The notes under the pieces: model-generated
What the model was told of the DNA's origin: nothing
What the model saw: only the letters and a program-made list of their open reading frames with translations
Database searches by the model: none
Part shown: positions 804 through 39,159 of the stretch, one piece after another
Numbering within the stretch: the first letter of the stretch is position 1
Layout: the number at the start of each line of letters is the position of its first letter
IMG/VR virus record: IMGVR_UViG_3300033066_001842
From: a virus
Length of the DNA: 64,000 bases
Direction: 5' to 3' (one strand)
Program-made: the position numbers and the translations under genes

Positions 804-824
804 TAAGTGGGTTTGTAGTAGCAA

Positions 825-1250
825 TTGGGAAAACAGGGGTTTTGCAAACCTAAGTTGCCAGTTCAACTCTGGCCTTATCCACCAATATTTTTAGTGTTTA
901 AAGATAAAGAAAAAAGAAAAGCCTACGATACAAATTGGAATAATTTAAATAGGCAACGTAAAAGAGACATAAATAAGAAATGGAAAGCTAAACAGCAAGA
1001 AGCTTTCCAAAGTATTAAAAATTTGTATAAGTGTTATTTTTGTAGTGAAGCTAATTCAGTTTGTTTAGATTTTCATCATGTCAATCCGAAAACTAAAAAA
1101 TTTAATGTAGCTAAAATGTCTGGAAGTTTTAGTATGGAAAATCTACTTAACGAAATTTCAAAATGTGTTGTTCTCTGTGCCAACTGTCATAGAAAATTAC
1201 ATGCCAATCTTCTGCCTGATCCTTTCGATAATCCCACCCAAGGGATATAA
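825..1250 (+). CDS. HNH homing endonuclease
   Basis: CYFCSEANSVCLDFHHVNP...CANCHRKLH: HNH motif with paired Cys zinc knuckle; located inside the tRNA cluster. Confidence 0.7.
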   Translation: MGKQGFCKPKLPVQLWPYPPIFLVFKDKEKRKAYDTNWNNLNRQRKRDINKKWKAKQQEAFQSIKNLYKCYFCSEANSVCLDFHHVNPKTKKFNVAKMSGSFSMENLLNEISKCVVLCANCHRKLHANLLPDPFDNPTQGI

Positions 1251-13505: not shown

Positions 13506-13638
13506 TGGATGGGGTGAGATTCGAACTCACAACCTCTCGTTTAGCATACGATAAAGTTAATCAAAACGGTTCAAATTTACGTTTGAACTAAAAGGTAGAC
13601 TAACAGTTTTTAGCGCTCTACCATTGAGCTACCCACCC
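13506..13638 (-). ncRNA. tRNA-like RNA with a ~70-nt insert replacing the anticodon arm (element E1)
   Basis: ends pair as a 7-bp acceptor stem GGGTGGG/CCCATCC; D-arm GCTC-AATGGTA-GAGC; T-arm GTGAG-TTCGAAT-CTCAC; discriminator A, no CCA; the insert has a CTAAAA/TTTTAG helix closing a 14-nt loop and a GTTCAAA/TTTGAAC hairpin. Confidence 0.45.
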
Positions 13639-13652
13639 ATAAAAAAATCGGA

Positions 13653-13781
13653 GATTGGTAAAGGGATTCGAACCCTTATTAGCGGCTCTGAATGCAATAA
13701 CCTTTATCTAGTCGGTTCTTATAGAACTAAAAAGGGCGACAAAGATGTTTTTACGCTGTCCTACCATTAGACGATACCAAT
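13653..13781 (-). ncRNA. tRNA-like RNA with a ~70-nt insert replacing the anticodon arm (element E2, paralogue of E1)
   Basis: acceptor ATTGGTA/TACCAAT perfect; D-arm GTCT-AATGGTA-GGAC; T-arm AAGGG-TTCGAAT-CCCTT; no CCA; the insert shares TAAAAAC, a 6-bp helix TAAAAA/TTTTTA closing a 14-nt loop, a GTTC-TATAA-GAAC hairpin and GAACCG with E1. Confidence 0.45.
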
Positions 13782-16520: not shown

Positions 16521-18212
16521 TTAATCTTCGTCTTCAGTTAAGGCTTTTTCCGAATTAAACGCATGAATTACACTTGTTACATTCGGATCAAATCCCGTTA
16601 CATCCAACGAATAAGGATCACTATCACTAGCAAAACCAGCAACACCATAACCAGTAGACTGCATACCAAGAGACATCAATCTCGTTTTGGGCTTATTCAT
16701 AAGTTTACGATAATTTTGCGTTAATGTCAAGGGGTGTTCCCCTGTATTGAAATCGTTATCGGTGATATGAATGAAGCAATCCACGTCTTGCTTGTTCTTG
16801 ATAGCATGTTTAATTGGTAAACCTGCATCAGTGTAACCCGTATTATATTTTTTGGCTTTTGTAATAGCCGTTGAAATATTGTCGGTTTTGGTCAATGGCA
16901 AGTCATTCAGAACACTAGAGAAACATTTGACATCACACCATGGTTCTCTTTTTACAATGGTAAGGGCGATTGTGGCGGCGGCTTCACAGAAAGACATTAA
17001 ACCGTTCGCCATCATGCTAGACATTGAGCGCGAAACGTCAACAGAAACCATAAAGTTTTTGCCAGTAGCGGGGGCAACATCGAAAGAGTTGTTGAAAGCT
17101 TCTTCCAAAGCTTCTTGAATTTTGGGAACAGGTTTCCAGGTTAATGAACCTTTCAAACCTTGTCCTTTTCCATAAGTGCGCAGAGCAAACAAAAGTTTAA
17201 GAGGGTGAATTCCAGCTTTTGTCAATTGCTCAATATTGGTAAGGCGACGTACAACCGTTTTGACATCCTCATTAGTTCCTGAAAGTAAACCACTCGCAGT
17301 TAATGAAGAAAGTTGGCGAACGGTTGCCATGTATGGCATTTTCGCAAGTAGGGCTTGTTGAACTTGAGGCACATTTTTAAACCATGTGGGAATCATTTCA
17401 TGGGTCATATCGGTAGCCCCAATCAATTCCACAAGACGTTTAATTTGTGCGTCAGATTTTTCATTTTCTTTCCATGATTGGATTTCAATGAAAGCTTCAA
17501 TCTGGCGTCCCCCCTTTGTCAAAATTTTAGGATCAATATCGGCTAAAGCTTTTAAAACTCCAGCTTCATTTCCATTAACCACATAATTAATGAAAGAGTT
17601 TGTAATTGATCCTTGAAACTCAGGGTGGGAAAGGCGAAGTAAGTCCTGGTGCGACCAACCATCACGTTGACGATACTTCAATAATTGATAAACCAGTGAG
17701 TCAAATGACTTATCGGTGTACCAGTCACCTACATAACGTTTCAACATGCGGCCCCATCCACGCATTCCCGTAACAATTTCCGCAAAGTGAAATAAATCAG
17801 TACCAGTATTGGCAACATGTTTTAGTTCATTGAGGAACATATCACGAACAGTACGACTAGGATGCGATGCGCCTAGAGCCAAAGTATATAACATTGGTTC
17901 TTTTGTAAGAGCACGACGTTGGCTTGAAATTTCTCGAATCTTTTGAACAACTTCTTTGGGGAAATTTTGAATCATCGCTCGGATGTTCGCCGTATTTTGG
18001 GCCAAGAGTTGTTGCGATCCTACAGCAAAGGTATGATTTTCCACACCCAAGATAAGGAATTTTTCGAGAAACTGTTCAGGAGTAAGTTTCAGTGAGTATC
18101 CGCCCCCAAAATTAGGAACAGAGAACTTTGCATTTTTCCCCGTAACAGGTTTTGTTACAGGATTGCTTTTTGCAGTTTTGTTTTTCTTTTGAGAGTAAGT
18201 AGAAATGGGCAT
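16521..18212 (-). CDS. Ro60/Rsr-like protein (TROVE domain plus C-terminal vWA)
   Basis: 563 aa; ~370-aa N-terminal helical-repeat region followed by a vWA fold with MIDAS VSVDVSRSMS (DxSxS); size and domain order match Ro60 orthologues. Confidence 0.55.
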   Translation of the reverse strand: MPISTYSQKKNKTAKSNPVTKPVTGKNAKFSVPNFGGGYSLKLTPEQFLEKFLILGVENHTFAVGSQQLLAQNTANIRAMIQNFPKEVVQKIREISSQRRALTKEPMLYTLALGASHPSRTVRDMFLNELKHVANTGTDLFHFAEIVTGMRGWGRMLKRYVGDWYTDKSFDSLVYQLLKYRQRDGWSHQDLLRLSHPEFQGSITNSFINYVVNGNEAGVLKALADIDPKILTKGGRQIEAFIEIQSWKENEKSDAQIKRLVELIGATDMTHEMIPTWFKNVPQVQQALLAKMPYMATVRQLSSLTASGLLSGTNEDVKTVVRRLTNIEQLTKAGIHPLKLLFALRTYGKGQGLKGSLTWKPVPKIQEALEEAFNNSFDVAPATGKNFMVSVDVSRSMSSMMANGLMSFCEAAATIALTIVKREPWCDVKCFSSVLNDLPLTKTDNISTAITKAKKYNTGYTDAGLPIKHAIKNKQDVDCFIHITDNDFNTGEHPLTLTQNYRKLMNKPKTRLMSLGMQSTGYGVAGFASDSDPYSLDVTGFDPNVTSVIHAFNSEKALTEDED

Positions 18213-32124: not shown

Positions 32125-32400
32125 ATCCCCTAAAGTACTAAAGTACTAAAGTGCTACCTAAGTAACTAATTCTCTTGACTTTATGTAAGTGTATGATAAT
32201 ACAGTACTTACCCCACTGATGCATACTCTGGGCTGTTTGTCAAGTACAAAATGATCTTAGTACTTTAGTACTGATTCAATCGTAGTACATTAGTACTGTG
32301 TCACCTTAGTACTTTAGTACTGTGTCGTACCAGTACTTTAGTACTAGTACTTTTTACTTAGTACGGGGGTACCAGTACCCTTAGTACTTTAGTACTAGAG
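32125..32400. repeat. iteron array built on AGTACT(TTAGTACT) units
   Basis: TTAGTACTTTAGTACT occurs 4 times direct (32267, 32305, 32331, 32378), once inverted as AGTACTAAAGTACTAAAG (32130-32150), plus degenerate copies such as GTAGTACATTAGTACT. Confidence 0.7.
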
Positions 32401-32511
32401 CCCCCCGCCCTCCCCTGTGACCTTGGTCACAGTATGTATATATTTCTACAAAAATTTTAGAATTTAGAACGTTTCGTGTTTCGCTGTACTTCGCTTCGCT
32501 ACGTACAAAAT

Positions 32512-33820: not shown

Positions 33821-34079
33821 AAAATCTCTCCTCTATTGGGAAATTGGCGACCTCTGCGAATATAAAGAAAAAAATGTTTTAATCCCCGTTGAGATTATAG
33901 CCAAACTTAAATCAAAAGAACCTCTTGAGAATAGAGAATATATTCGTTACACTTTCAAACGGTATGACCGCGATCATAAAAACGAATTCTCTCTCTACTT
34001 ATTCTTGGAATTTTTTGAGGACACTATTCCCGAGTGTCCAACACTCCAATCACTAGGAACAGAACTGAAAATAAACTAA
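33807..34079 (+). CDS. hypothetical protein
   Basis: 90 aa. Confidence 0.35.
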   Translation: MEPSKKSLLYWEIGDLCEYKEKNVLIPVEIIAKLKSKEPLENREYIRYTFKRYDRDHKNEFSLYLFLEFFEDTIPECPTLQSLGTELKIN

Positions 34080-34080
34080 T

Positions 34081-34311
34081 ATGTCTACATACAATCCTTA
34101 CCGTGTGAAAAAAGAAAAGCCCCTTATTGAAGAACGCCCAACTATGGAAGTGTTACCTAAAAACCCACACCCCCTAGTTGAAACCAATGAAAAATTTCTC
34201 CGTTGGTTTCATAAACAGGCGCAAACTTTAATGATGCCCTTGGTATATAATCTATTATGTACTGAATTTGAAACGCAAAACCCCGGAGTCAAACTAAAAC
34301 GTTTCTCCTAA
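34081..34311 (+). CDS. hypothetical protein
   Basis: 76 aa. Confidence 0.3.
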   Translation: MSTYNPYRVKKEKPLIEERPTMEVLPKNPHPLVETNEKFLRWFHKQAQTLMMPLVYNLLCTEFETQNPGVKLKRFS

Positions 34312-34317
34312 TTTTAT

Positions 34318-34397
34318 GGCCCTGTACCGCCCTCGCCTTCTAAGCGTGAAAAGCGTAACGGATGAAAATGTGGGTTCGAATCCCTCCAGGGCTTCCA
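34318..34397 (+). tRNA. atypical tRNA-like gene, anticodon arm consistent with Arg(UCU), no canonical D-arm
   Basis: acceptor GGCCCTG/CAGGGCT (G·U at 1-72), T-arm GTGGG-TTCGAAT-CCCTC, CCA encoded; anticodon arm CTCGC-CTTCTAA-GCGTG sits only 5 nt after position 9, then a 21-nt unstructured stretch precedes the T-arm. Confidence 0.3.
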
Positions 34398-34417
34398 TTT
34401 TGTTATTCTAAATATAT

Positions 34418-34492
34418 GGCTAGTTAGCTGAGATGGATTAGCTTTGGTCTGAAAAACCAAGCAGCTTGGATCGTTACCAAGACTAGCCACCA
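34418..34492 (+). tRNA. tRNA-Phe(GAA)
   Basis: perfect acceptor GGCTAGT/ACTAGCC, anticodon stem TTGGT/ACCAA loop CTGAAAA, T-arm CTTGG-ATCGTTA-CCAAG, CCA encoded. Confidence 0.7.
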
Positions 34493-34497
34493 GTTTT

Positions 34498-34574
34498 TGC
34501 ACAGATAGTTTAATTGGTAAAACAATGGATTCCAAACCCATTAGATGAGAGTTCAAATCTTTCTCTGTGTGCCA
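34498..34574 (+). tRNA. tRNA-Trp(CCA)
   Basis: acceptor GCACAGA/TCTGTGT, anticodon loop TTCCAAA closed by AATGG/CCATT with an A·C at 31-39, T-arm GAGAG-TTCAAAT-CTTTC, CCA encoded. Confidence 0.55.
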
Positions 34575-34712
34575 ATCTTACCAGAATTATACCCGTTTAT
34601 TTCTTAGCCGAAACAATAGTCTAGCTACCTATTGCGGGGTTCCGATTATTGCATTTTAGGACGCACAAGGAACATGCATTACTCTAGTGCTATAATTCTG
34701 GTATAGTCTTTT

Positions 34713-34787
34713 GTTCCGAGTTAGCTCAAAGGTAGAGCAAGCGACTGATAATCGTTAGACCATAGTTCGATTCTATGACTCGGAACC
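34713..34787 (+). tRNA. tRNA-Ile(GAU)
   Basis: perfect acceptor GTTCCGA/TCGGAAC, D-arm GCTC-AAAGGTA-GAGC, anticodon loop CTGATAA, T-arm CATAG-TTCGATT-CTATG; CCA not encoded. Confidence 0.65.
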
Positions 34788-34988
34788 ATTTTTATGCCTG
34801 AAACAAAAAAACAAATACAAGATAGACTTAAAACTGTAATGCCAATTGGTGACACAGATTTCACAGACATGTCTGAAACATCTTTTGTCATGTGGTTTAA
34901 TGGTCACTGCTTCCTGTGGAAATTTGATAAAGATTCCCAAAAATGGGATTGTATTGACGAACTCTAGTTTATATGTTATGCTAAATGT

Positions 34989-35064
34989 GGGTCTGTAACT
35001 CAATTGGCAGAGTAATTGGCTTTTAACCAAGAGGTTGGGGGTTCAATTCCCTCCAGACCCACCA
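34989..35064 (+). tRNA. tRNA-Lys(UUU)
   Basis: perfect acceptor GGGTCTG/CAGACCC, D-arm ACTC-AATTGGCA-GAGT, anticodon loop CTTTTAA, CCA encoded. Confidence 0.7.
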
Positions 35065-35073
35065 AATTTTTAT

Positions 35074-35148
35074 GGTCCTTTCGTCTAACGGATAAGGCAT
35101 TGCGCTACGAACGCAAAAATATAGGTTCGATTCCTATAGGGACTTCCA
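35074..35148 (+). tRNA. tRNA-Arg(ACG)
   Basis: acceptor GGTCCTT/AGGGACT (2 G·U), perfect anticodon stem TTGCG/CGCAA loop CTACGAA, T-arm ATAGG-TTCGATT-CCTAT, CCA encoded. Confidence 0.7.
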
Positions 35149-35157
35149 CAATTTTAC

Positions 35158-35248
35158 GGAAAGGTGACAGAGTGGTAATGTGCGATTCTGCTAAAATCAG
35201 GCTAACCTCTAAAGGGTTACGAAGGTTCGATCCCTTCCTTTTCCGCCA
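35158..35248 (+). tRNA. tRNA-Ser(GCU)
   Basis: 91 nt with long variable arm; acceptor GGAAAGG/CTTTTCC, anticodon loop CTGCTAA, T-arm GAAGG-TTCGATC-CCTTC, CCA encoded. Confidence 0.6.
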
Positions 35249-35434
35249 AAACTTTTAAAGGACATTTTTATGGCACGTATTTCTAAAGAACCTTGTGAAT
35301 TTTGCAAGGGTGAAAATTGTGTAGAAGTTTCTCAACCTAATGATTGGGATTCCGATTACAAAATCCATTGCCTAAAATGTGATAAAGTTTATTGGGTAGA
35401 CGGTGAAGACGGTTAATCTGCTATCCTAATTTTA

Positions 35435-35529
35435 TGGGAGTGATGCAAGGTTGGTAGACTTGCGCTGGTCTGTAAAACCAGTCTTTCTTAGAAAGTTAAC
35501 ACATTGGTTCAAATCCATTCACTCCCACC
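35435..35529 (+). tRNA. tRNA-Tyr(GUA)
   Basis: 95 nt with long variable arm; perfect acceptor GGGAGTG/CACTCCC, perfect anticodon stem CTGGT/ACCAG loop CTGTAAA, T-loop TTCAAAT, CCA encoded. Confidence 0.7.
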
Positions 35530-35551
35530 ATTTCTTTTTTAAGGACACCCC

Positions 35552-35929
35552 ATGCTAAGACGTTTTTTCCTAACCCTTCTACCTGCCTCGCTTTTGGCGA
35601 AACCATCCCCCAAAATTTCTACTTTTGAAAAACAATGTAGAATAATTGCATCCGAAAAATTAAAATTTCTTCGGGAAAATGTAACTCAACCGTTAGCTAT
35701 TAACGAACATAGATGGTTTACAAATTCTAAATACATTATATGTTATGAAATGTTTTTAGATGGAACAATCTGTTTACCCAATCCGGCAGGTTTAAAAGGC
35801 ACACAAATAGTTTGTTACGAATGTCCTAGTGATGAATCTAGAAAAAATTTTATCAACCTCTTAATCCTCACCAAGGGTCAATATAATACAGGGCGGTATT
35901 GCATCTTCGAAACTTCCGAATTTCTCTAA
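35552..35929 (+). CDS. secreted hypothetical protein inside the tRNA cluster
   Basis: signal-like MLRRFFLTLLPASLLAKPS; 125 aa, 5 Cys. Confidence 0.4.
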   Translation: MLRRFFLTLLPASLLAKPSPKISTFEKQCRIIASEKLKFLRENVTQPLAINEHRWFTNSKYIICYEMFLDGTICLPNPAGLKGTQIVCYECPSDESRKNFINLLILTKGQYNTGRYCIFETSEFL

Positions 35930-36171
35930 AAATGACACAATTAGAACAAATTATAGAATGGCAAGAACGTCTTGATAAGATACATCTTGCCCTATATCCT
36001 GTTTCTAAAGTGACGCCTATACCTGCCTTTAAAAATATAAACGATATCAAAGCTCTCCCCATATGGAAAATTAAAAAACTATATGGGGAAATTTTCTGTG
36101 CTTACTGTGAATCTGATAAAATCCTCAAACGAGACTCCTGCTCCAACTGTGGGGCTCCATACAACCATTGA
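35899..36171 (+). CDS. zinc-ribbon small protein
   Basis: CAYCESD...CSNCG. Confidence 0.3.
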   Translation: MHLRNFRISLKMTQLEQIIEWQERLDKIHLALYPVSKVTPIPAFKNINDIKALPIWKIKKLYGEIFCAYCESDKILKRDSCSNCGAPYNH

Positions 36172-36209
36172 CTACCTTATCAATAAATGATATAATCTTT
36201 ATATGGAAG

Positions 36210-36301
36210 GTGGGCTGCAATGGTGCGGAAACTGTCTTGAAAACAGTCCTATGTAGCGATCACTGCATAAGGGTTCGATTCCTTCACCTTCCTCCATTTT
36301 A
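36210..36301 (+). tRNA. tRNA-Ser(UGA)
   Basis: 92 nt with long variable arm; perfect acceptor GGAAGGT/ACCTTCC, perfect anticodon stem ACTGT/ACAGT loop CTTGAAA, CCA encoded. Confidence 0.65.
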
Positions 36302-36452
36302 TTTATGAAATATGATAAGGTCCATACTATAAATTGGAAAGTTATTGAAAAACAAATTGGAAAACCAAAAACAATTGACGACTATAGAAGGACTTATAAA
36401 ATAATTAACGGTAAATTAGTAGAGACTACTCCCGATTTACCCCACAAAACTT

Positions 36453-36530
36453 TGGCCTCCTAGCTCCAATCGGTAGAGGCAACGGACTTAAAATCCGTAC
36501 AGTCTGGGTTCGAATCCCAGGGGGGCTACC
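36453..36530 (+). tRNA. tRNA with Leu anticodon UAA but short (5-nt) variable region
   Basis: acceptor GGCCTCC/GGGGGCT (2 G·U), perfect anticodon stem ACGGA/TCCGT loop CTTAAAA, T-arm CTGGG-TTCGAAT-CCCAG, discriminator A73, CCA encoded. Confidence 0.5.
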
Positions 36531-36554
36531 ATTTTTGTTGTAAACTAAATATAT

Positions 36555-36630
36555 GGCGCGTTGATGTAATTGGCAACCATACCAGTCTTAGAAACTGTTT
36601 TTATAGGTTCGAATCCTATACGCGCCACCA
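36555..36630 (+). tRNA. tRNA with Leu anticodon UAG but short (5-nt) variable region
   Basis: perfect acceptor GGCGCGT/ACGCGCC, anticodon loop CTTAGAA (4 bp plus one mismatch in the stem), T-arm ATAGG-TTCGAAT-CCTAT, A73, CCA encoded. Confidence 0.5.
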
Positions 36631-36633
36631 ATT

Positions 36634-36725
36634 CCCCGTTGGGAGGATGGCTCCTCAAGCGGCTTTATAATCCGTCACACCAGATCAGTGTCTAGAACGT
36701 AGTTCGATTCTACGGGCGGGGACCA
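36634..36725 (+). tRNA. aberrant 92-nt type-II-like tRNA with a 9-nt anticodon loop CUUUAUAAU
   Basis: acceptor CCCCGTT/GGCGGGG (2 G·U), D-stem GGAG/CTCC, 4-bp anticodon stem GCGG/CCGT closing a 9-nt loop, variable stem-loop ACAC-CAGATCA-GTGT, perfect T-arm CGTAG-TTCGATT-CTACG, A73, CCA encoded. Confidence 0.35.
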
Positions 36726-36772
36726 ATTTTCTGTCCGAAAAATGTATACAAATTTCCATCAAGGATAAAAAA

Positions 36773-37639
36773 ATGCAATTCCATTATGCCGTCTATTTCT
36801 ATGTCGGCTTTTCTGGACATTCCCCACACAGCAGCTTTAAACATTCTGCTGGTGAAATCCACATTAACTTAGACAAACCCCGTATTGAAAAAGAATTAGA
36901 ACGCAACAATATGGGTATCCTCATAATGGCACGCCTAACCTCCTCTGACGCCATTATGGAAACCATCGGCCTCCTAAACGCCCTAGAACATACATTTCCC
37001 TCTGAAAGAGTGGATCTCTTCATCCCCTATTATCCCTATTCCCGCGCTGACCGCGTAATCGGAAATGGTGGCGGGGATTCTTTTGGCGTAGAAATCATTA
37101 CCAACCTTTTTTCCGATGAAATTTGTCCTAACATTGGAAAAATTATCACCCTGGACACCCATTCTGCCGTTTCTCATTCCGTAGTAGATTCAGATATCCT
37201 CTGTCACTACGAATTATTCCAAGAATCAGGAATTAATATCCCCGTCCACGCCAACATTATTACCGTAGCTCCCGACAAAGGCGCTTCCAATCGTGCTTCC
37301 GTCTTTGCATCCTGTCTCAAAACAGGTTTAATCACTGCTTCCAAAGAACGCGATCTTGGTGGCCACATCTCCTATTACAAAGTTCCAGAAAACCTCCCCT
37401 CCAACGCCTACTACATCGTAATCGATGATATCTGTGATGGGGGCGCAACCTTCAATCTATTAGCAAAAAGTTTGCCCCAAAATGCTAAAAAAATTCTAAT
37501 CGTAACACACGGCATTTTTTCCCAAGGTGTAAATGCTATTCATGGTTATGATTATATTGTTACAACAAATTCAATTCATGATTTTCCAGCAACTTCAAAA
37601 AACTTTATTGTAAAGGATCTTACGAAATGTCTTGTGTAA
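36773..37639 (+). CDS. prs: ribose-phosphate pyrophosphokinase (PRPP synthetase)
   Basis: FIPYYPYSRADR (cf. Prs PYFGYARQDR) and PRPP-binding YIVIDDICDGGATF (cf. VDDIIDTGGT). Confidence 0.65.
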   Translation: MQFHYAVYFYVGFSGHSPHSSFKHSAGEIHINLDKPRIEKELERNNMGILIMARLTSSDAIMETIGLLNALEHTFPSERVDLFIPYYPYSRADRVIGNGGGDSFGVEIITNLFSDEICPNIGKIITLDTHSAVSHSVVDSDILCHYELFQESGINIPVHANIITVAPDKGASNRASVFASCLKTGLITASKERDLGGHISYYKVPENLPSNAYYIVIDDICDGGATFNLLAKSLPQNAKKILIVTHGIFSQGVNAIHGYDYIVTTNSIHDFPATSKNFIVKDLTKCLV

Positions 37640-39078
37640 ACCCTCTCCTCCATACTGATGTTTACAAGATGGGCCACATGGAGCAATATGCCCCTGGAAC
37701 TACCCGTATATATTCCAACATCGTAACCCGTTCCGCAAGAAAATATCCCGCCGTCCTAAATTTCGGAACACAATACTATCTTTCCGAATATCTTTCCAAA
37801 CCAATTACCAAAGCCCATGTGGACGAATTTCTCGACCTAAACAATCGTATCCTTTCCTCCACATCCAACGAAGTTTACACCAAATTACGCGCCCTTGAAA
37901 AATTAGGCTTCGTTCCCCTAATCATCAAAGCTTTACCAGAAGGTAACGTTTACCCAATTGGGACACCCCTTCTCACAGCTACAAACCATCCTGACTATCC
38001 AGAATTCGCGTGGACTGTCGGATTTTACGAAAGCTTACTTCTAAAAATCTGGAACACTTGTACCGTAGCCACTTTTTCGCGCAAACTAAAACAACTGTGC
38101 TACCTTTACGCCGACCTAACCTGTGATTCCAATCTCCATGTGGATTACCAAGTTCACGACTTCGGCTATCGTGGCTGCTCATCTGAAGAAACTGCCGCAA
38201 TCTCCGGTATGTCTCACCTAGTAAATTTTCTAGGCACAGATACCGTTCTCGCCGTAAAATACGCCAAAGACTACTATTACGCAACGGACCCAATCGGTCT
38301 ATCTGTCCCTGCATCCGAACATTCTGTAATGTGTTCTTTTGGCCCAACCAACGAAATCGATGCATTCCGCCACATGCTTAAAACATATCCTACTGGAATT
38401 GTTTCAATCGTGTGTGACACCTACAACATTTGGAAAGTTCTTTCAGAATTCGTACCCCTTCTGAAAGACGAAATTCTTGCGCGTAACGGAAAAGTAGTAT
38501 TTCGCCCCGACTCAGGCGACCAAGAAAAAATCCTTTGTGGAAACCCTGACGCTTCCGACCCTCTAGAAAAGAAAGGTGTCTTCCAACTCCTCTTCGAACA
38601 ATTTGGTGAATTTCCAAACAAAAAAGGATATCGCACCCTCCACCCAAAAGTGGGTGTTGTCTATGGTGACGGATTCTACTACGATAAATTCCACACGGTT
38701 TTCAACCGGATGAAAACTGACAAAATCTCCTCAGCCGAACTAACAGTAGGGGTTGGCGGAATTTTGCTCCAACAACACAACCGCGATGATATGGGTTTTT
38801 CCATGAAAGCCACCTATATCGAACAAAACGGTAACGGCGTAAACATCTTTAAAGACCCAATTACCGATCCTGGCAAAAAATCCCTCAAAGGACTGCTCTC
38901 CGTAACCCAAGAACCCTACCATGGGGGCTATACTTGGAAAACCAACCAAGAAATCACATGGGAACAAGAGAAAAGAGGGGCTTTACAGGTGGTCTTTAAT
39001 CGTGGTAAACTATTAAATCAGACTACTTTTGATGAAATTCGCAAAAGGGCCGATTCCTCAATCGTTAAAAGATATTAA
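37627..39078 (+). CDS. nadV: nicotinamide phosphoribosyltransferase (NadV/NAMPT-like)
   Basis: 483 aa, the size expected for NadV; HDFGYRG motif of the NAPRTase/NAMPT family; sits immediately downstream of prs, whose product PRPP is its co-substrate. Confidence 0.6.
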   Translation: MSCVNPLLHTDVYKMGHMEQYAPGTTRIYSNIVTRSARKYPAVLNFGTQYYLSEYLSKPITKAHVDEFLDLNNRILSSTSNEVYTKLRALEKLGFVPLIIKALPEGNVYPIGTPLLTATNHPDYPEFAWTVGFYESLLLKIWNTCTVATFSRKLKQLCYLYADLTCDSNLHVDYQVHDFGYRGCSSEETAAISGMSHLVNFLGTDTVLAVKYAKDYYYATDPIGLSVPASEHSVMCSFGPTNEIDAFRHMLKTYPTGIVSIVCDTYNIWKVLSEFVPLLKDEILARNGKVVFRPDSGDQEKILCGNPDASDPLEKKGVFQLLFEQFGEFPNKKGYRTLHPKVGVVYGDGFYYDKFHTVFNRMKTDKISSAELTVGVGGILLQQHNRDDMGFSMKATYIEQNGNGVNIFKDPITDPGKKSLKGLLSVTQEPYHGGYTWKTNQEITWEQEKRGALQVVFNRGKLLNQTTFDEIRKRADSSIVKRY

Positions 39079-39083
39079 TTTTT

Positions 39084-39159
39084 GCTTGGGAGGCTGAAGA
39101 GTGGAGGCACCGCCCTTACAAGACGGCTAAAGTGGGTTCAACTCCCACCCCAAGTACCA
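39084..39159 (+). tRNA. tRNA-Val(UAC)
   Basis: acceptor GCTTGGG/CCCAAGT (G·U at 1-72), anticodon loop CTTACAA (stem has one C·A), T-arm GTGGG-TTCAACT-CCCAC, CCA encoded. Confidence 0.55.

What the first reader, a model, noticed from the sequence alone, without database searches (positions are those of the whole stretch)
36453..36630. Two tRNAs with leucine anticodons (UAA, UAG) but class-I architecture
Both genes fold well, with perfect or near-perfect acceptor, anticodon and T arms, have discriminator A73 as LeuRS requires, and encode CCA. Yet their variable regions are only 5 nt, whereas every bacterial tRNA-Leu is class II with a long variable arm. Either the phage supplies short-arm Leu tRNAs (as seen in metazoan mitochondria), or these tRNAs are charged with another amino acid, or they act as decoys.
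Basis: partly seen in the sequence, partly recalled or inferred. Interest (0 to 1): 0.55.

Follow-up and report, generated by a model that had tools for sequence, protein, structure and literature searches.

The report
Phage short-arm leucine tRNAs, known kind
Two genuine phage tRNA genes carry leucine anticodons but lack the long extra arm; such short-arm leucine tRNAs are already present in many phages and in whole bacterial phyla, so this is an ordinary new member of a little-publicised but known kind.

Summary
Window 36454-36531 and 36555-36630 are tRNA genes (Rfam 51.8 and 58.4 bits). Their anticodons are UAA and UAG, their variable loops are 5 and 4 nt, and both have A73 and an encoded CCA.

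- Homologous 74-78-nt tRNA-Leu genes are annotated in cultured phages: KVP40, P-RSM6, Pseudomonas 16Q, T5-like Klebsiella and Enterobacter phages, and Aeromonas APT65.
- They make up about 23% (28 of 121) of the tRNA-Leu(UAR) matches in the first 120 viral-contig loci returned.
- A 75-nt tRNA-Leu(UAA) is the lone chromosomal gene at more than 100 loci in Actinomycetota and Planctomycetota.
- Type I tRNA-Leu is leucylated in Streptomyces coelicolor (PMC6614811).

Both window genes keep a leucine-type body: a 3-bp D stem, a D loop AAUYGGYA with the extra nucleotide 20a, A15 with U48, and A73. That D-arm signature occurs in 143 of 165 Leu tRNAs and 1 of 683 non-Leu tRNAs in the fetched loci. The window codes tRNAs for all 20 amino acids only if these two are Leu.

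Best reading: functional leucine tRNAs charged by the host LeuRS. No charging was measured, and E. coli LeuRS failed on the Streptomyces type I tRNA.

More unusual is the next gene, 36634-36727: a long-arm tRNA with the isoleucine anticodon UAU.

The parts
36454..36531 (+). tRNA-Leu(UAA), class I: 75 nt plus encoded CCA. G1.U72; 3-bp D stem GCU/GGC; D loop CCAAUCGGUAGA; variable loop ACAGU with U48; A73.
   Evidence: ARAGORN. Rfam RF00005, 51.8 bits. The MFE fold is the cloverleaf. Homologues in cultured phages. Family covariation.
36489..36491 (+). Anticodon UAA in the loop CUUAAAA. It reads UUA and UUG.
36555..36630 (+). tRNA-Leu(UAG), class I: 73 nt plus encoded CCA. 3-bp D stem AUG/CAU; D loop UAAUUGGCAAC; C27xU43 mismatch; variable loop UUUU ending in U48; A37; A73.
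   Evidence: ARAGORN. Rfam RF00005, 58.4 bits. Short homologue in Aeromonas phage APT65. Family covariation.
36589..36591 (+). Anticodon UAG in the loop CUUAGAA. It reads CUA and CUG, and possibly all CUN codons.
36634..36727 (+). Adjacent gene in the same cluster: a long-arm tRNA-like gene with anticodon UAU (the AUA codon), A73, CCA, and variable-arm hairpin ACAC-CAGAUCA-GUGU. It is not part of the Leu finding but is its immediate neighbour.
   Evidence: ARAGORN finds it only at relaxed threshold. Rfam does not detect it at E<=1. Family members in viral and metagenome contigs.
36205..36296 (+). tRNA-Ser(UGA), an ordinary class II gene. It is the first gene of this sub-cluster and shows that the phage does keep long arms on Ser and Tyr tRNAs.
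   Evidence: ARAGORN.
36168..36196 (+). Promoter-like site TTGACT-17-TATAAT (11 of 12 matches, with TG extension) just upstream of the Ser-Leu-Leu-UAU block. A weaker site lies at 36375-36402. Both are consensus matches only.

Best explanation
Both genes are functional phage-encoded leucine tRNAs of the short-variable-loop (type I) kind. This kind recurs in many phages and in some bacterial phyla.

Proposed mechanism:
1. Transcription and processing (inferred). They are transcribed with the neighbouring tRNAs and trimmed by host RNase P and 3' nucleases. CCA is already encoded.
2. Charging (inferred from sequence and published biochemistry). The host leucyl-tRNA synthetase charges them. This enzyme ignores the anticodon and, in bacteria, does not need the long arm. 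It reads A73, the U8-A14 and A15-U48 core pairs, the position of G18G19 in an enlarged D loop with the extra nucleotide 20a, and the D/T elbow. All of these are present in both genes.
3. Decoding (inferred). UAA reads UUA and UUG. UAG reads CUA and CUG, and possibly all CUN. Together they cover the leucine codons of a phage that carries a near-minimal tRNA set of its own.

Why the arm is short is not shown. The simplest reading is inheritance from a lineage of short-arm Leu tRNAs in which the arm is dispensable for charging.
For: Shown here:
- They are real tRNAs.
- The 31-member family keeps the class I cloverleaf. 98.5% of cells are paired; 19 of 20 pairs show compensatory change; 0 of 500 shuffles reach the observed value; slid controls give 35-46% paired.
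- U8, U48 and A73 are invariant although the search pattern did not fix them.
- The D loop AAUCGGUAGA of the UAA gene is identical to that of E. coli leuZ, which also has G1.U72 and U48. The UAG type resembles leuW.
- The D-loop motif with Leu-type spacing (21 nt from A14 to nt 34) occurs in 143 of 165 Leu-anticodon tRNAs and in 1 of 683 others, over 1.1 Mb of fetched loci. Among Leu tRNAs that the pattern did not select (CAA or GAG anticodons), 11 of 15 carry the motif.
- Homologues of 74-78 nt are annotated tRNA-Leu in phiKT1024, 16Q, P-RSM6, KKP_3711, APT65 and KVP40.
- 28 of 121 pattern matches in viral contigs have class I spacing.
- More than 100 loci in bacterial genomes have a lone 75-nt tRNA-Leu(taa).
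- The window has tRNAs for all 20 amino acids, all with encoded CCA, only if these two are Leu.
- Leu is the commonest amino acid in the window's ORFs: 943 of 11861 codons, with UUA+UUG 43% and CUA 16% of Leu codons.

From the literature:
- E. coli LeuRS needs A73, A15-U48, G18G19 and A20a, but not the arm or the anticodon (PMC9976931).
- Aquifex LeuRS keeps about 8% of kcat/Km on a tRNA without the V arm, whereas deleting U48 abolishes charging (PMC2377443).
- S. coelicolor LeuRS charges a natural type I tRNA-Leu (PMC6614811).
Against: - No aminoacylation was measured, and the host is unknown.
- E. coli LeuRS did not leucylate the S. coelicolor type I tRNA-Leu(CAA), so not every bacterial LeuRS accepts a short arm. 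That tRNA has C48, not U48.
- For ScoLeuRS, 5 nt was the shortest variable loop giving good activity. The UAG gene has 4 nt, or 5 unpaired nucleotides if U43 of the C27xU43 mismatch is counted.
- The UAG gene has A37, where E. coli leuW has G37.
- My covariance model of the short family is not a clean isotype test. E. coli leuZ (62.1 bits) and leuW (57.8) are the best hits in their loci, but Met scores 55.1 and phage Lys 61.7.
- tRNAscan-SE isotype models were not available.
Confidence: 0.8

Rival explanations
1. Loss of the long arm is an adaptation. The tRNAs are leucine tRNAs, but the short arm makes them invisible to effectors that grip the long arm of class II tRNAs. Such effectors could be host toxins or abortive-infection nucleotidyltransferases of the MenT/AbiEii type, or a phage-directed attack on host tRNA-Leu. 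The phage could then keep translating when host class II tRNAs are disabled. This adds to the main explanation rather than replacing it.
For: [quoted passage not shown] Deleting the loop prevents modification, and grafting it onto tRNA-Met confers it (PMC11541572).
- Short Leu tRNAs are enriched in mobile tRNA sets: 28 of 121 matches in viral contigs, and mycobacterial tRNA arrays.
- At least two D-arm subtypes exist (GCCC..GGC and GCGA..CGC, the latter leuW-like). This suggests more than one loss of the arm (inference).
Against: - The same phage keeps long arms on tRNA-Ser (two genes) and tRNA-Tyr.
- tRNA-Leu was not a preferred MenT3 target.
- Short-arm tRNA-Leu(UAA) is also an ordinary chromosomal gene in many Actinomycetota, so a short arm needs no phage-specific selection.
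- No effector specific for the arm of tRNA-Leu is known to me.
Confidence: 0.15
2. They are charged with an amino acid other than leucine and act as missense tRNAs at UUR and CUR codons.
For: - Natural tRNAs whose body and anticodon disagree do exist: allo-tRNAs that insert Ser at Leu codons (PMC5389517) and nematode nev-tRNAs (PMC3333845).
- The same cluster holds an architecture/anticodon oddity at 36634-36727.
- E. coli LeuRS rejected one natural type I tRNA-Leu.
Against: - There is no G3:U70 for AlaRS: both genes have C3-G70.
- There is no long arm and no G73 for SerRS.
- The acceptor and T stems are the ordinary 7 and 5 pairs, not the 8/4 or 9/3 of allo-tRNAs.
- The anticodons match no anticodon-reading synthetase.
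- The body is Leu-type.
- Without these two genes the otherwise complete tRNA set would lack Leu.
Confidence: 0.04
3. They are decoys or sponges for tRNA-directed nucleases and are not used in translation.
For: Phage tRNAs are proposed to counter anticodon nucleases (PMC10264068 and PMC11555353).
Against: - A decoy needs only the targeted element. Here the acceptor stem, T arm, elbow nucleotides, A73 and CCA are all conserved or covary across 31 diverged homologues.
- Replacement tRNAs that are themselves translated would explain the same literature.
Confidence: 0.04
4. One or both genes are decaying relics with no function.
For: - The UAG gene has a C27xU43 mismatch and a 4-nt variable loop, and its minimum-energy fold is not the cloverleaf.
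- The UAA gene has an extra D-loop C that the family lacks.
Against: - Both score well above the Rfam threshold of 29 bits.
- Both keep every invariant family position, including U8, A14, A15, G18, G19, U48, the T loop and A73.
- They are the only Leu tRNAs in a set that covers every other amino acid.
Confidence: 0.05

Closest known systems
Short (74-78 nt) tRNA-Leu genes of cultured phages: Vibrio phage KVP40 tRNA-Leu-1 and tRNA-Leu-2, Vibrio phage phiKT1024, Pseudomonas phage 16Q, cyanophage P-RSM6, T5-like Enterobacter phage KKP_3711 and Klebsiella phage Sugarland, and Aeromonas phage APT65 (UAG)
   Same: The cloverleaf, D arm (UAGCCCAAUYGGCAGAGGCA for the UAA type), anticodon loops CUUAAAA and CUUAGAA, 5-nt variable loop ending in U48, and A73 all match. 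CCA is often encoded, and G1.U72 is frequent. Identity to the window's UAA gene is up to 83% over 71 nt.
   Different: The window's UAA gene has one extra C in the D loop. The window's UAG gene has a 4-nt variable loop and a C27xU43 mismatch. The phage itself is unrelated to these phages: its terminase is only about 25% identical to any cultured phage.
Chromosomal class I tRNA-Leu(UAA) of Actinomycetota (Nocardia, Mycobacterium, Gordonia, Arthrobacter and others) and of some Planctomycetota
   Same: The 74-nt body is nearly the same, for example GCCCCCAUAGCCCAAUUGGCAGAGGCAGCGGACUUAAAAUCCGC..GUGUCGGUUCGAGUCCGAC..A. It shares the D arm, U48 and A73.
   Different: These are lone genes in high-GC chromosomes (113 of 120 loci; median GC 67%). 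CCA is usually not encoded.
Streptomyces coelicolor type I tRNA-Leu(CAA) (Fan et al. 2019, PMC6614811)
   Same: It is a bacterial tRNA-Leu with a 5-nt variable loop, and it has been shown experimentally to be leucylated. U8-A14 is an identity element, and nucleotide 48 is indispensable.
   Different: Its anticodon is CAA and its position 48 is C, not U. In that system A73 is not an identity element. E. coli LeuRS cannot charge it, so its result cannot simply be transferred to other hosts.
Canonical class II bacterial tRNA-Leu (E. coli leuZ UAA, leuW UAG)
   Same: The D-arm architecture and sequence match: a 3-bp stem, AAUYGGUAGA, and the extra nucleotide 20a. A15 with U48 and A73 are shared. 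leuZ also has G1.U72.
   Different: E. coli has a 13-15-nt variable arm where the window genes have 4-5 nt. leuW has G37 where the window's UAG gene has A37.
Short-variable-loop tRNA-Leu(TAG) in mycobacterial tRNA gene clusters (PMC6582537)
   Same: It is a short-loop Leu(UAG) isoacceptor in a mobile, phage-like tRNA array. The same arrays also carry tRNA-Ile(TAT).
   Different: I did not compare the sequence. The host context is Actinomycetota.
Metazoan mitochondrial tRNA-Leu
   Same: It has a short variable loop and A73.
   Different: According to the literature, mitochondrial tRNAs have reduced or floppy cores, and S. coelicolor LeuRS does not charge the human one. The window genes have canonical G18G19 and UUCGAAU elbows. 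No homology is implied.

Membership tests
Type I (short-variable-loop) bacterial/phage tRNA-Leu | Canonical 7/5 cloverleaf with a variable loop of 4-5 nt and no extra arm | tested here: met
   ARAGORN structures. Rfam alignment. Family covariation: 98.5% of cells paired and 19 of 20 pairs compensatory.
Type I (short-variable-loop) bacterial/phage tRNA-Leu | Leucine anticodon in a 7-nt loop | tested here: met
   UAA at 36489-36491 and UAG at 36589-36591. Both programs place them identically.
Type I (short-variable-loop) bacterial/phage tRNA-Leu | Leu-type D arm: 3-bp stem, A14 A15, G18G19 in the loop AAUYGGYA, and the extra nucleotide 20a | tested here: met
   Alignment with E. coli leuZ and leuW. 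Motif plus Leu-type spacing is found in 143 of 165 Leu and 1 of 683 non-Leu tRNAs. The UAA gene has one additional C before A14.
Type I (short-variable-loop) bacterial/phage tRNA-Leu | U48 (the partner of A15) and discriminator A73 | tested here: met
   Both are present in both genes. Both are invariant in 31 of 31 family members, although the search pattern did not impose them.
Type I (short-variable-loop) bacterial/phage tRNA-Leu | Sequence homology to annotated members | tested here: met
   BLAST hits to annotated tRNA-Leu genes of 74-78 nt. Covariance model R1 gives 80.5 and 72.9 bits, but both genes were in its training set.
Type I (short-variable-loop) bacterial/phage tRNA-Leu | Accepts leucine from LeuRS | not testable with these tools
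   Only published data on other tRNAs are available.
Type I (short-variable-loop) bacterial/phage tRNA-Leu | Top score with a leucine isotype-specific covariance model (tRNAscan-SE 2) | not tested
My substitute model R1 ranks E. coli leuZ and leuW first in their loci, but only by 3-16 bits, which is inconclusive.
Canonical class II tRNA-Leu | Variable arm of more than 10 nt that forms a stem-loop | tested here: not met
   The variable loops are 5 and 4 nt.
allo-tRNA / missense suppressor with Ser identity (Mukai 2017) | 8/4 or 9/3 acceptor/T branch, long V arm, and G73 or U73 | tested here: not met
   The branch is 7/5, there is no V arm, and the discriminator is A73.
Alanine-identity tRNA | G3:U70 pair | tested here: not met
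   Both genes have C3-G70. The window's tRNA-Ala(UGC) at 809-884 does have G3.U70.
Metazoan mitochondrial-type tRNA-Leu | Reduced or non-canonical D/T elbow and mitochondrial ancestry | tested here: not met
   G18G19 and UUCGAAU are canonical. The closest relatives are bacterial and phage genes.

The most novel reading that the evidence does not exclude
The short arm is a selected counter-defence trait. By shedding the long arm, phage leucine tRNAs escape host effectors, or a phage-directed attack on host tRNA-Leu, that recognise class II tRNAs through that arm.

The three-gene block Leu(UAA)-Leu(UAG)-long-arm tRNA(UAU) would then be a set of deliberately re-architected tRNAs. The same neighbourhood recurs in viral contig L129. 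In the third gene, the added hairpin displays a GAU (isoleucine) anticodon-like loop. It might help charge an AUA decoder that ordinary IleRS handles poorly.
Probability: 0.12. Interest if true: 0.7.

Novelty: new member of a known kind. Interest (0 to 1): 0.28.

Why it matters
For this window the result is mainly corrective. The two genes should be annotated simply as tRNA-Leu(UAA) and tRNA-Leu(UAG), and the 'impossible architecture' flag is unwarranted.

More generally, a current authoritative review still states that tRNA-Leu carries a long arm everywhere except animal mitochondria (PMC9976931). The scans here show otherwise. Roughly one in five phage tRNA-Leu(UAR) genes sampled is short-armed, and so are the chromosomal tRNA-Leu(UAA) genes at more than 100 actinobacterial and planctomycete loci.

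One real open question remains. E. coli LeuRS rejected the one natural type I tRNA-Leu that has been tested, yet phages of enterobacteria, Vibrio and Pseudomonas carry such genes. How these are charged, and whether arm loss brings any benefit, can be tested directly with cultured phages.

Tried and rejected
- Close relatives of the phage, for locus-level comparison. Megablast of 34000-38000 against cultured phages found no match. Scans of viral contigs with the neighbouring 288-aa protein, the terminase and an exact tRNA pattern found nothing. Exact-protein look-up found only the same phage in two Logan runs. The terminase is about 25% identical to any cultured phage. The host therefore stays unknown.
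- BLAST of the UAA gene against E. coli genomes gave no match at E<=10, because the query is too short for that database. I fetched leuZ and leuW by coordinates instead.
- A covariance model of the short-Leu family, used as an isotype test. It ranks class II Leu genes first in the E. coli loci, but Met and Lys come close. I rejected it as a decisive discriminator.
- The plain D-loop motif alone is not Leu-specific: 21 non-Leu tRNAs carry it. It becomes specific only together with the extra-nucleotide spacing.
- Literature searches for an explicit description of phage class I tRNA-Leu found none. The relevant papers concern Streptomyces and mycobacterial tRNA arrays.
- The idea that the long-arm UAU gene is a leucine body with an Ile anticodon, like nematode nev-tRNAs. 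Most family members have an ordinary class I D arm, not the Leu type, so I did not adopt this.
- BLAST of the long-arm UAU gene, and of a family member from locus L134, against cultured phages found nothing significant.

Full report
**What is there.**
ARAGORN finds 20 tRNA genes in the window. Among them are tRNA-Leu(taa) at 36454-36531 and tRNA-Leu(tag) at 36555-36630. Rfam's general tRNA model scores them 51.8 and 58.4 bits against a threshold of 29, and puts the anticodons in the same places.

Both genes have 7-bp acceptor stems, 5-bp T stems with UUCGAAU loops, loops CUUAAAA and CUUAGAA, A73 and an encoded CCA.

Four corrections are needed:
- The first gene starts at 36454.
- Its acceptor stem has G1.U72 and U5.G68.
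- The second gene has a C27xU43 mismatch.
- The second gene's variable loop is 4 nt, not 5.

The thermodynamic fold gives the cloverleaf for the first gene only. The second relies on the covariance model and on family covariation.

**Context.**
The window is a tailed phage. It encodes a terminase, portal, major head protein and DNA polymerase, and NAD-salvage genes lie just downstream of the tRNAs. It has no close relative among cultured phages or IMG/VR contigs. The same phage occurs in two Logan runs. The host is unknown.

**These genes are not unique.**
BLAST of the UAA gene against cultured phages gave 202 records. Many are ungapped matches over about 71 nt to genes annotated tRNA-Leu. Fetching them showed short tRNA-Leu genes in:
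- Vibrio phage phiKT1024 (UAA, 78 nt), Pseudomonas phage 16Q (75 nt) and cyanophage P-RSM6 (74 nt).
- T5-like Enterobacter phage KKP_3711 (77 nt).
- Many Klebsiella, Cronobacter, Pectobacterium and Proteus phages.
- KVP40, with two 77-nt Leu genes.

The UAG gene matches a 77-nt tRNA-Leu(tag) in Aeromonas phage APT65. That phage also has a normal 85-nt Leu(taa).

The lengths are bimodal: 28 have class I spacing (19 UAA, 9 UAG) and 93 have class II spacing. Short Leu genes with CAA and GAG anticodons also appear in those loci.

**The family is a real, selected cloverleaf.**
I aligned 31 short Leu genes, including both window genes. For this alignment I removed the extra D-loop C of the window's UAA gene.
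- 98.5% of cells pair and 19 of 20 pairs show compensatory change.
- No shuffle out of 500 reaches the observed value, and slid controls give 35-46% paired.
- U8, U48 and A73 are invariant, although the pattern did not fix them.
- G1.U72 occurs in 16 of 31 members.

**Isotype evidence.**
- Aligned with E. coli leuZ and leuW, the window genes share the Leu-type D arm: a 3-bp stem, AAUYGGYA and one extra nucleotide (20a). They also share U48 and A73.
- The UAA gene's D loop AAUCGGUAGA is identical to that of leuZ, which also has G1.U72.
- In 848 ARAGORN tRNAs from 1.1 Mb of fetched loci, the motif with Leu-type spacing occurs in 143 of 165 Leu tRNAs and 1 of 683 non-Leu tRNAs.
- Most Leu entries were selected by that motif. 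However, 11 of 15 CAA or GAG Leu tRNAs, which were not selected, carry it too.
- A covariance model of the short family ranks leuZ (62.1 bits) and leuW (57.8) first in their E. coli loci. Met (55.1) and phage Lys (61.7) are close, so I treat this as weak support.
- Relaxed ARAGORN and Rfam add tRNA-Ala(UGC) at 809-884 and tRNA-Val(UAC) at 39084-39156. The window then encodes tRNAs for all 20 amino acids, each with CCA, only if these two are Leu.
- Leu is the commonest residue in the window's large ORFs. UUA plus UUG make up 43% of Leu codons and CUA 16%.

- 113 are lone roughly 75-nt tRNA-Leu(taa) genes in high-GC contigs (median 67%). These come from Nocardia, Mycobacterium, Gordonia, Arthrobacter, Nocardioides, Rhodococcus and other Actinomycetota, plus Planctomycetota.
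- One planctomycete locus has three short Leu genes in a row.

The literature agrees:
- S. coelicolor has a type I tRNA-Leu(CAA) that its single LeuRS leucylates. U8-A14 is an identity element, nucleotide 48 is indispensable and 5 nt is the practical minimum loop (PMC6614811).
- A short-loop tRNA-Leu(TAG) was noted in mycobacterial tRNA clusters (PMC6582537).
- In M. tuberculosis only tRNA-Leu-2, -3 and -5 are described as long-looped (PMC11541572).
- For E. coli LeuRS the arm and anticodon are dispensable, while A73, A15-U48, G18G19 and A20a matter (PMC9976931).
- Aquifex LeuRS keeps about 8% efficiency without the arm and none without U48 (PMC2377443).

**Mechanism and caveats.**
I conclude with about 0.8 confidence that both genes are working leucine tRNAs charged by the host LeuRS.

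The anatomy, homology, covariation and completeness of the tRNA set are shown. Charging and decoding are inferred.

The main caveat is that E. coli LeuRS could not charge the Streptomyces type I tRNA. That tRNA has C48 rather than the U48 kept throughout the phage family.

Other points against full function:
- The 4-nt loop and the C27xU43 mismatch in the UAG gene.
- A37 in the UAG gene where leuW has G37.
- The extra D-loop C in the UAA gene.

Mischarging, decoy and relic readings each get about 0.05 or less. A counter-defence reason for arm loss is possible but unsupported here. MenT3 uses the long loop of tRNA-Ser as a handle, and AbiEii appears to prefer class II tRNAs. However, this phage keeps long arms on its Ser and Tyr tRNAs.

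**Novelty.**
This is a new member of a known kind. No paper in the searchable library describes the phage genes explicitly. They have nevertheless been annotated in GenBank phage records, and the bacterial counterpart has been characterised biochemically.

**Beyond the finding.**
The next gene, 36634-36727, is stranger.
- It has a normal acceptor stem, T arm, A73 and CCA, and anticodon UAU (the Ile AUA codon). It also has a 22-nt variable region with the hairpin ACAC-CAGAUCA-GUGU.
- Default ARAGORN and Rfam miss it.
- Scans found 24 distinct relatives in viral and metagenome contigs, and none in cultured phages.
- All 24 have A73. The hairpin stem covaries; its third pair is A-U in 6, G-C in 12, U-A in 3 and C-G in 3.
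- The hairpin loop always carries GAU in the middle (CAGAUUA, and in some CUGAUAA). GAU is the anticodon of the major tRNA-Ile.
- In viral contig L129 this gene also follows a run of short Leu genes.
- Other long-arm UAU hits in soil metagenomes look like published allo-tRNAs, with an 8/4 branch and G73.

I could not determine what charges this family. The window copy is the most divergent member and may be degenerate.

Noticed in passing
window 36634-36727 (+); relatives L126 8854-8947, L129 8921-9011, L132-L136, L140, L141 and about 40 metagenome loci among L262-L353: A tRNA gene with the isoleucine anticodon UAU, A73 and CCA carries an added hairpin in the variable region: a 4-bp covarying stem and the loop C(A/U)GAU(U/A)(A/C), which has GAU in the anticodon-like position. 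I found 24 distinct sequences, all from uncultured viral or metagenome contigs and none from cultured phages. I found no description in the searchable literature. The window copy has an odd D arm (G8; GAGG-AUGGCU-CCUC) and is missed by default ARAGORN and by Rfam.
   Followed up: partly
window 34318-34394 (+): A tRNA-like element scores 28.9 bits with Rfam, just under threshold. It has a good acceptor stem (G1.U72), T arm, U73 and CCA. It also has an anticodon-like loop CUUCUAA (UCU, Arg AGA). It has no normal D arm, and about 20 nt of extra sequence precede the T arm.
   Followed up: no
window 16521-18212 (-) and 13506-13704 (-): The ORF is a Ro60 orthologue (TROVE 4e-27; Ro60 vWA domain 1e-36). 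Nearby, Rfam reports a 'tRNA' with a 74-nt insertion (48.8 bits) and, overlapping it, a weak YrlA (Y RNA-like) match (26.6 bits, below threshold). This is probably a phage Ro60/Y-RNA module.
   Followed up: partly
window 809-884 (+) and 39084-39156 (+): Default ARAGORN misses two further tRNA genes: tRNA-Ala(UGC) with G3.U70 (Rfam 35.5 bits) and tRNA-Val(UAC) with G1.U72 (Rfam 43.1 bits). With them the window encodes tRNAs for all 20 amino acids, all with encoded CCA.
   Followed up: yes
L126 9111-9187 (-): In viral contig IMGVR_UViG_3300021400_000046, a class I 'tRNA-Glu(UUC)' has a Leu-type D arm (GAC-GAAUUGGUAAA-GUC with the extra nucleotide) and A73. It scores 67.6 bits with the short-Leu model. 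It may be a leucine body with a glutamate anticodon.
   Followed up: no
L147 (Planctomycetota MAG JBCCHQ010000007.1): A cluster of three short Leu genes (CAG 77 nt, UAA 75 nt, GAG 75 nt) sits next to a 100-nt tRNA-Tyr. This hints that some planctomycetes may have only short-arm Leu tRNAs.
   Followed up: no
window 36773-39078 (+): Immediately downstream of the tRNA block lie a weak PRPP-synthetase-like ORF (288 aa) and a nicotinamide/nicotinate phosphoribosyltransferase (483 aa; NAPRTase 2e-41). This is an NAD-salvage pair, as seen in many large phages.
   Followed up: partly
window about 32308-32441 (+): A dense run of AGTACT/GTAC palindromic repeats (agtactttagtact...gtaccagtac...) turned up as spurious hits when ARAGORN was run at relaxed threshold. 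It lies in a region with no ORF of 50 aa or more. It may be a binding-site array or an origin.
   Followed up: no
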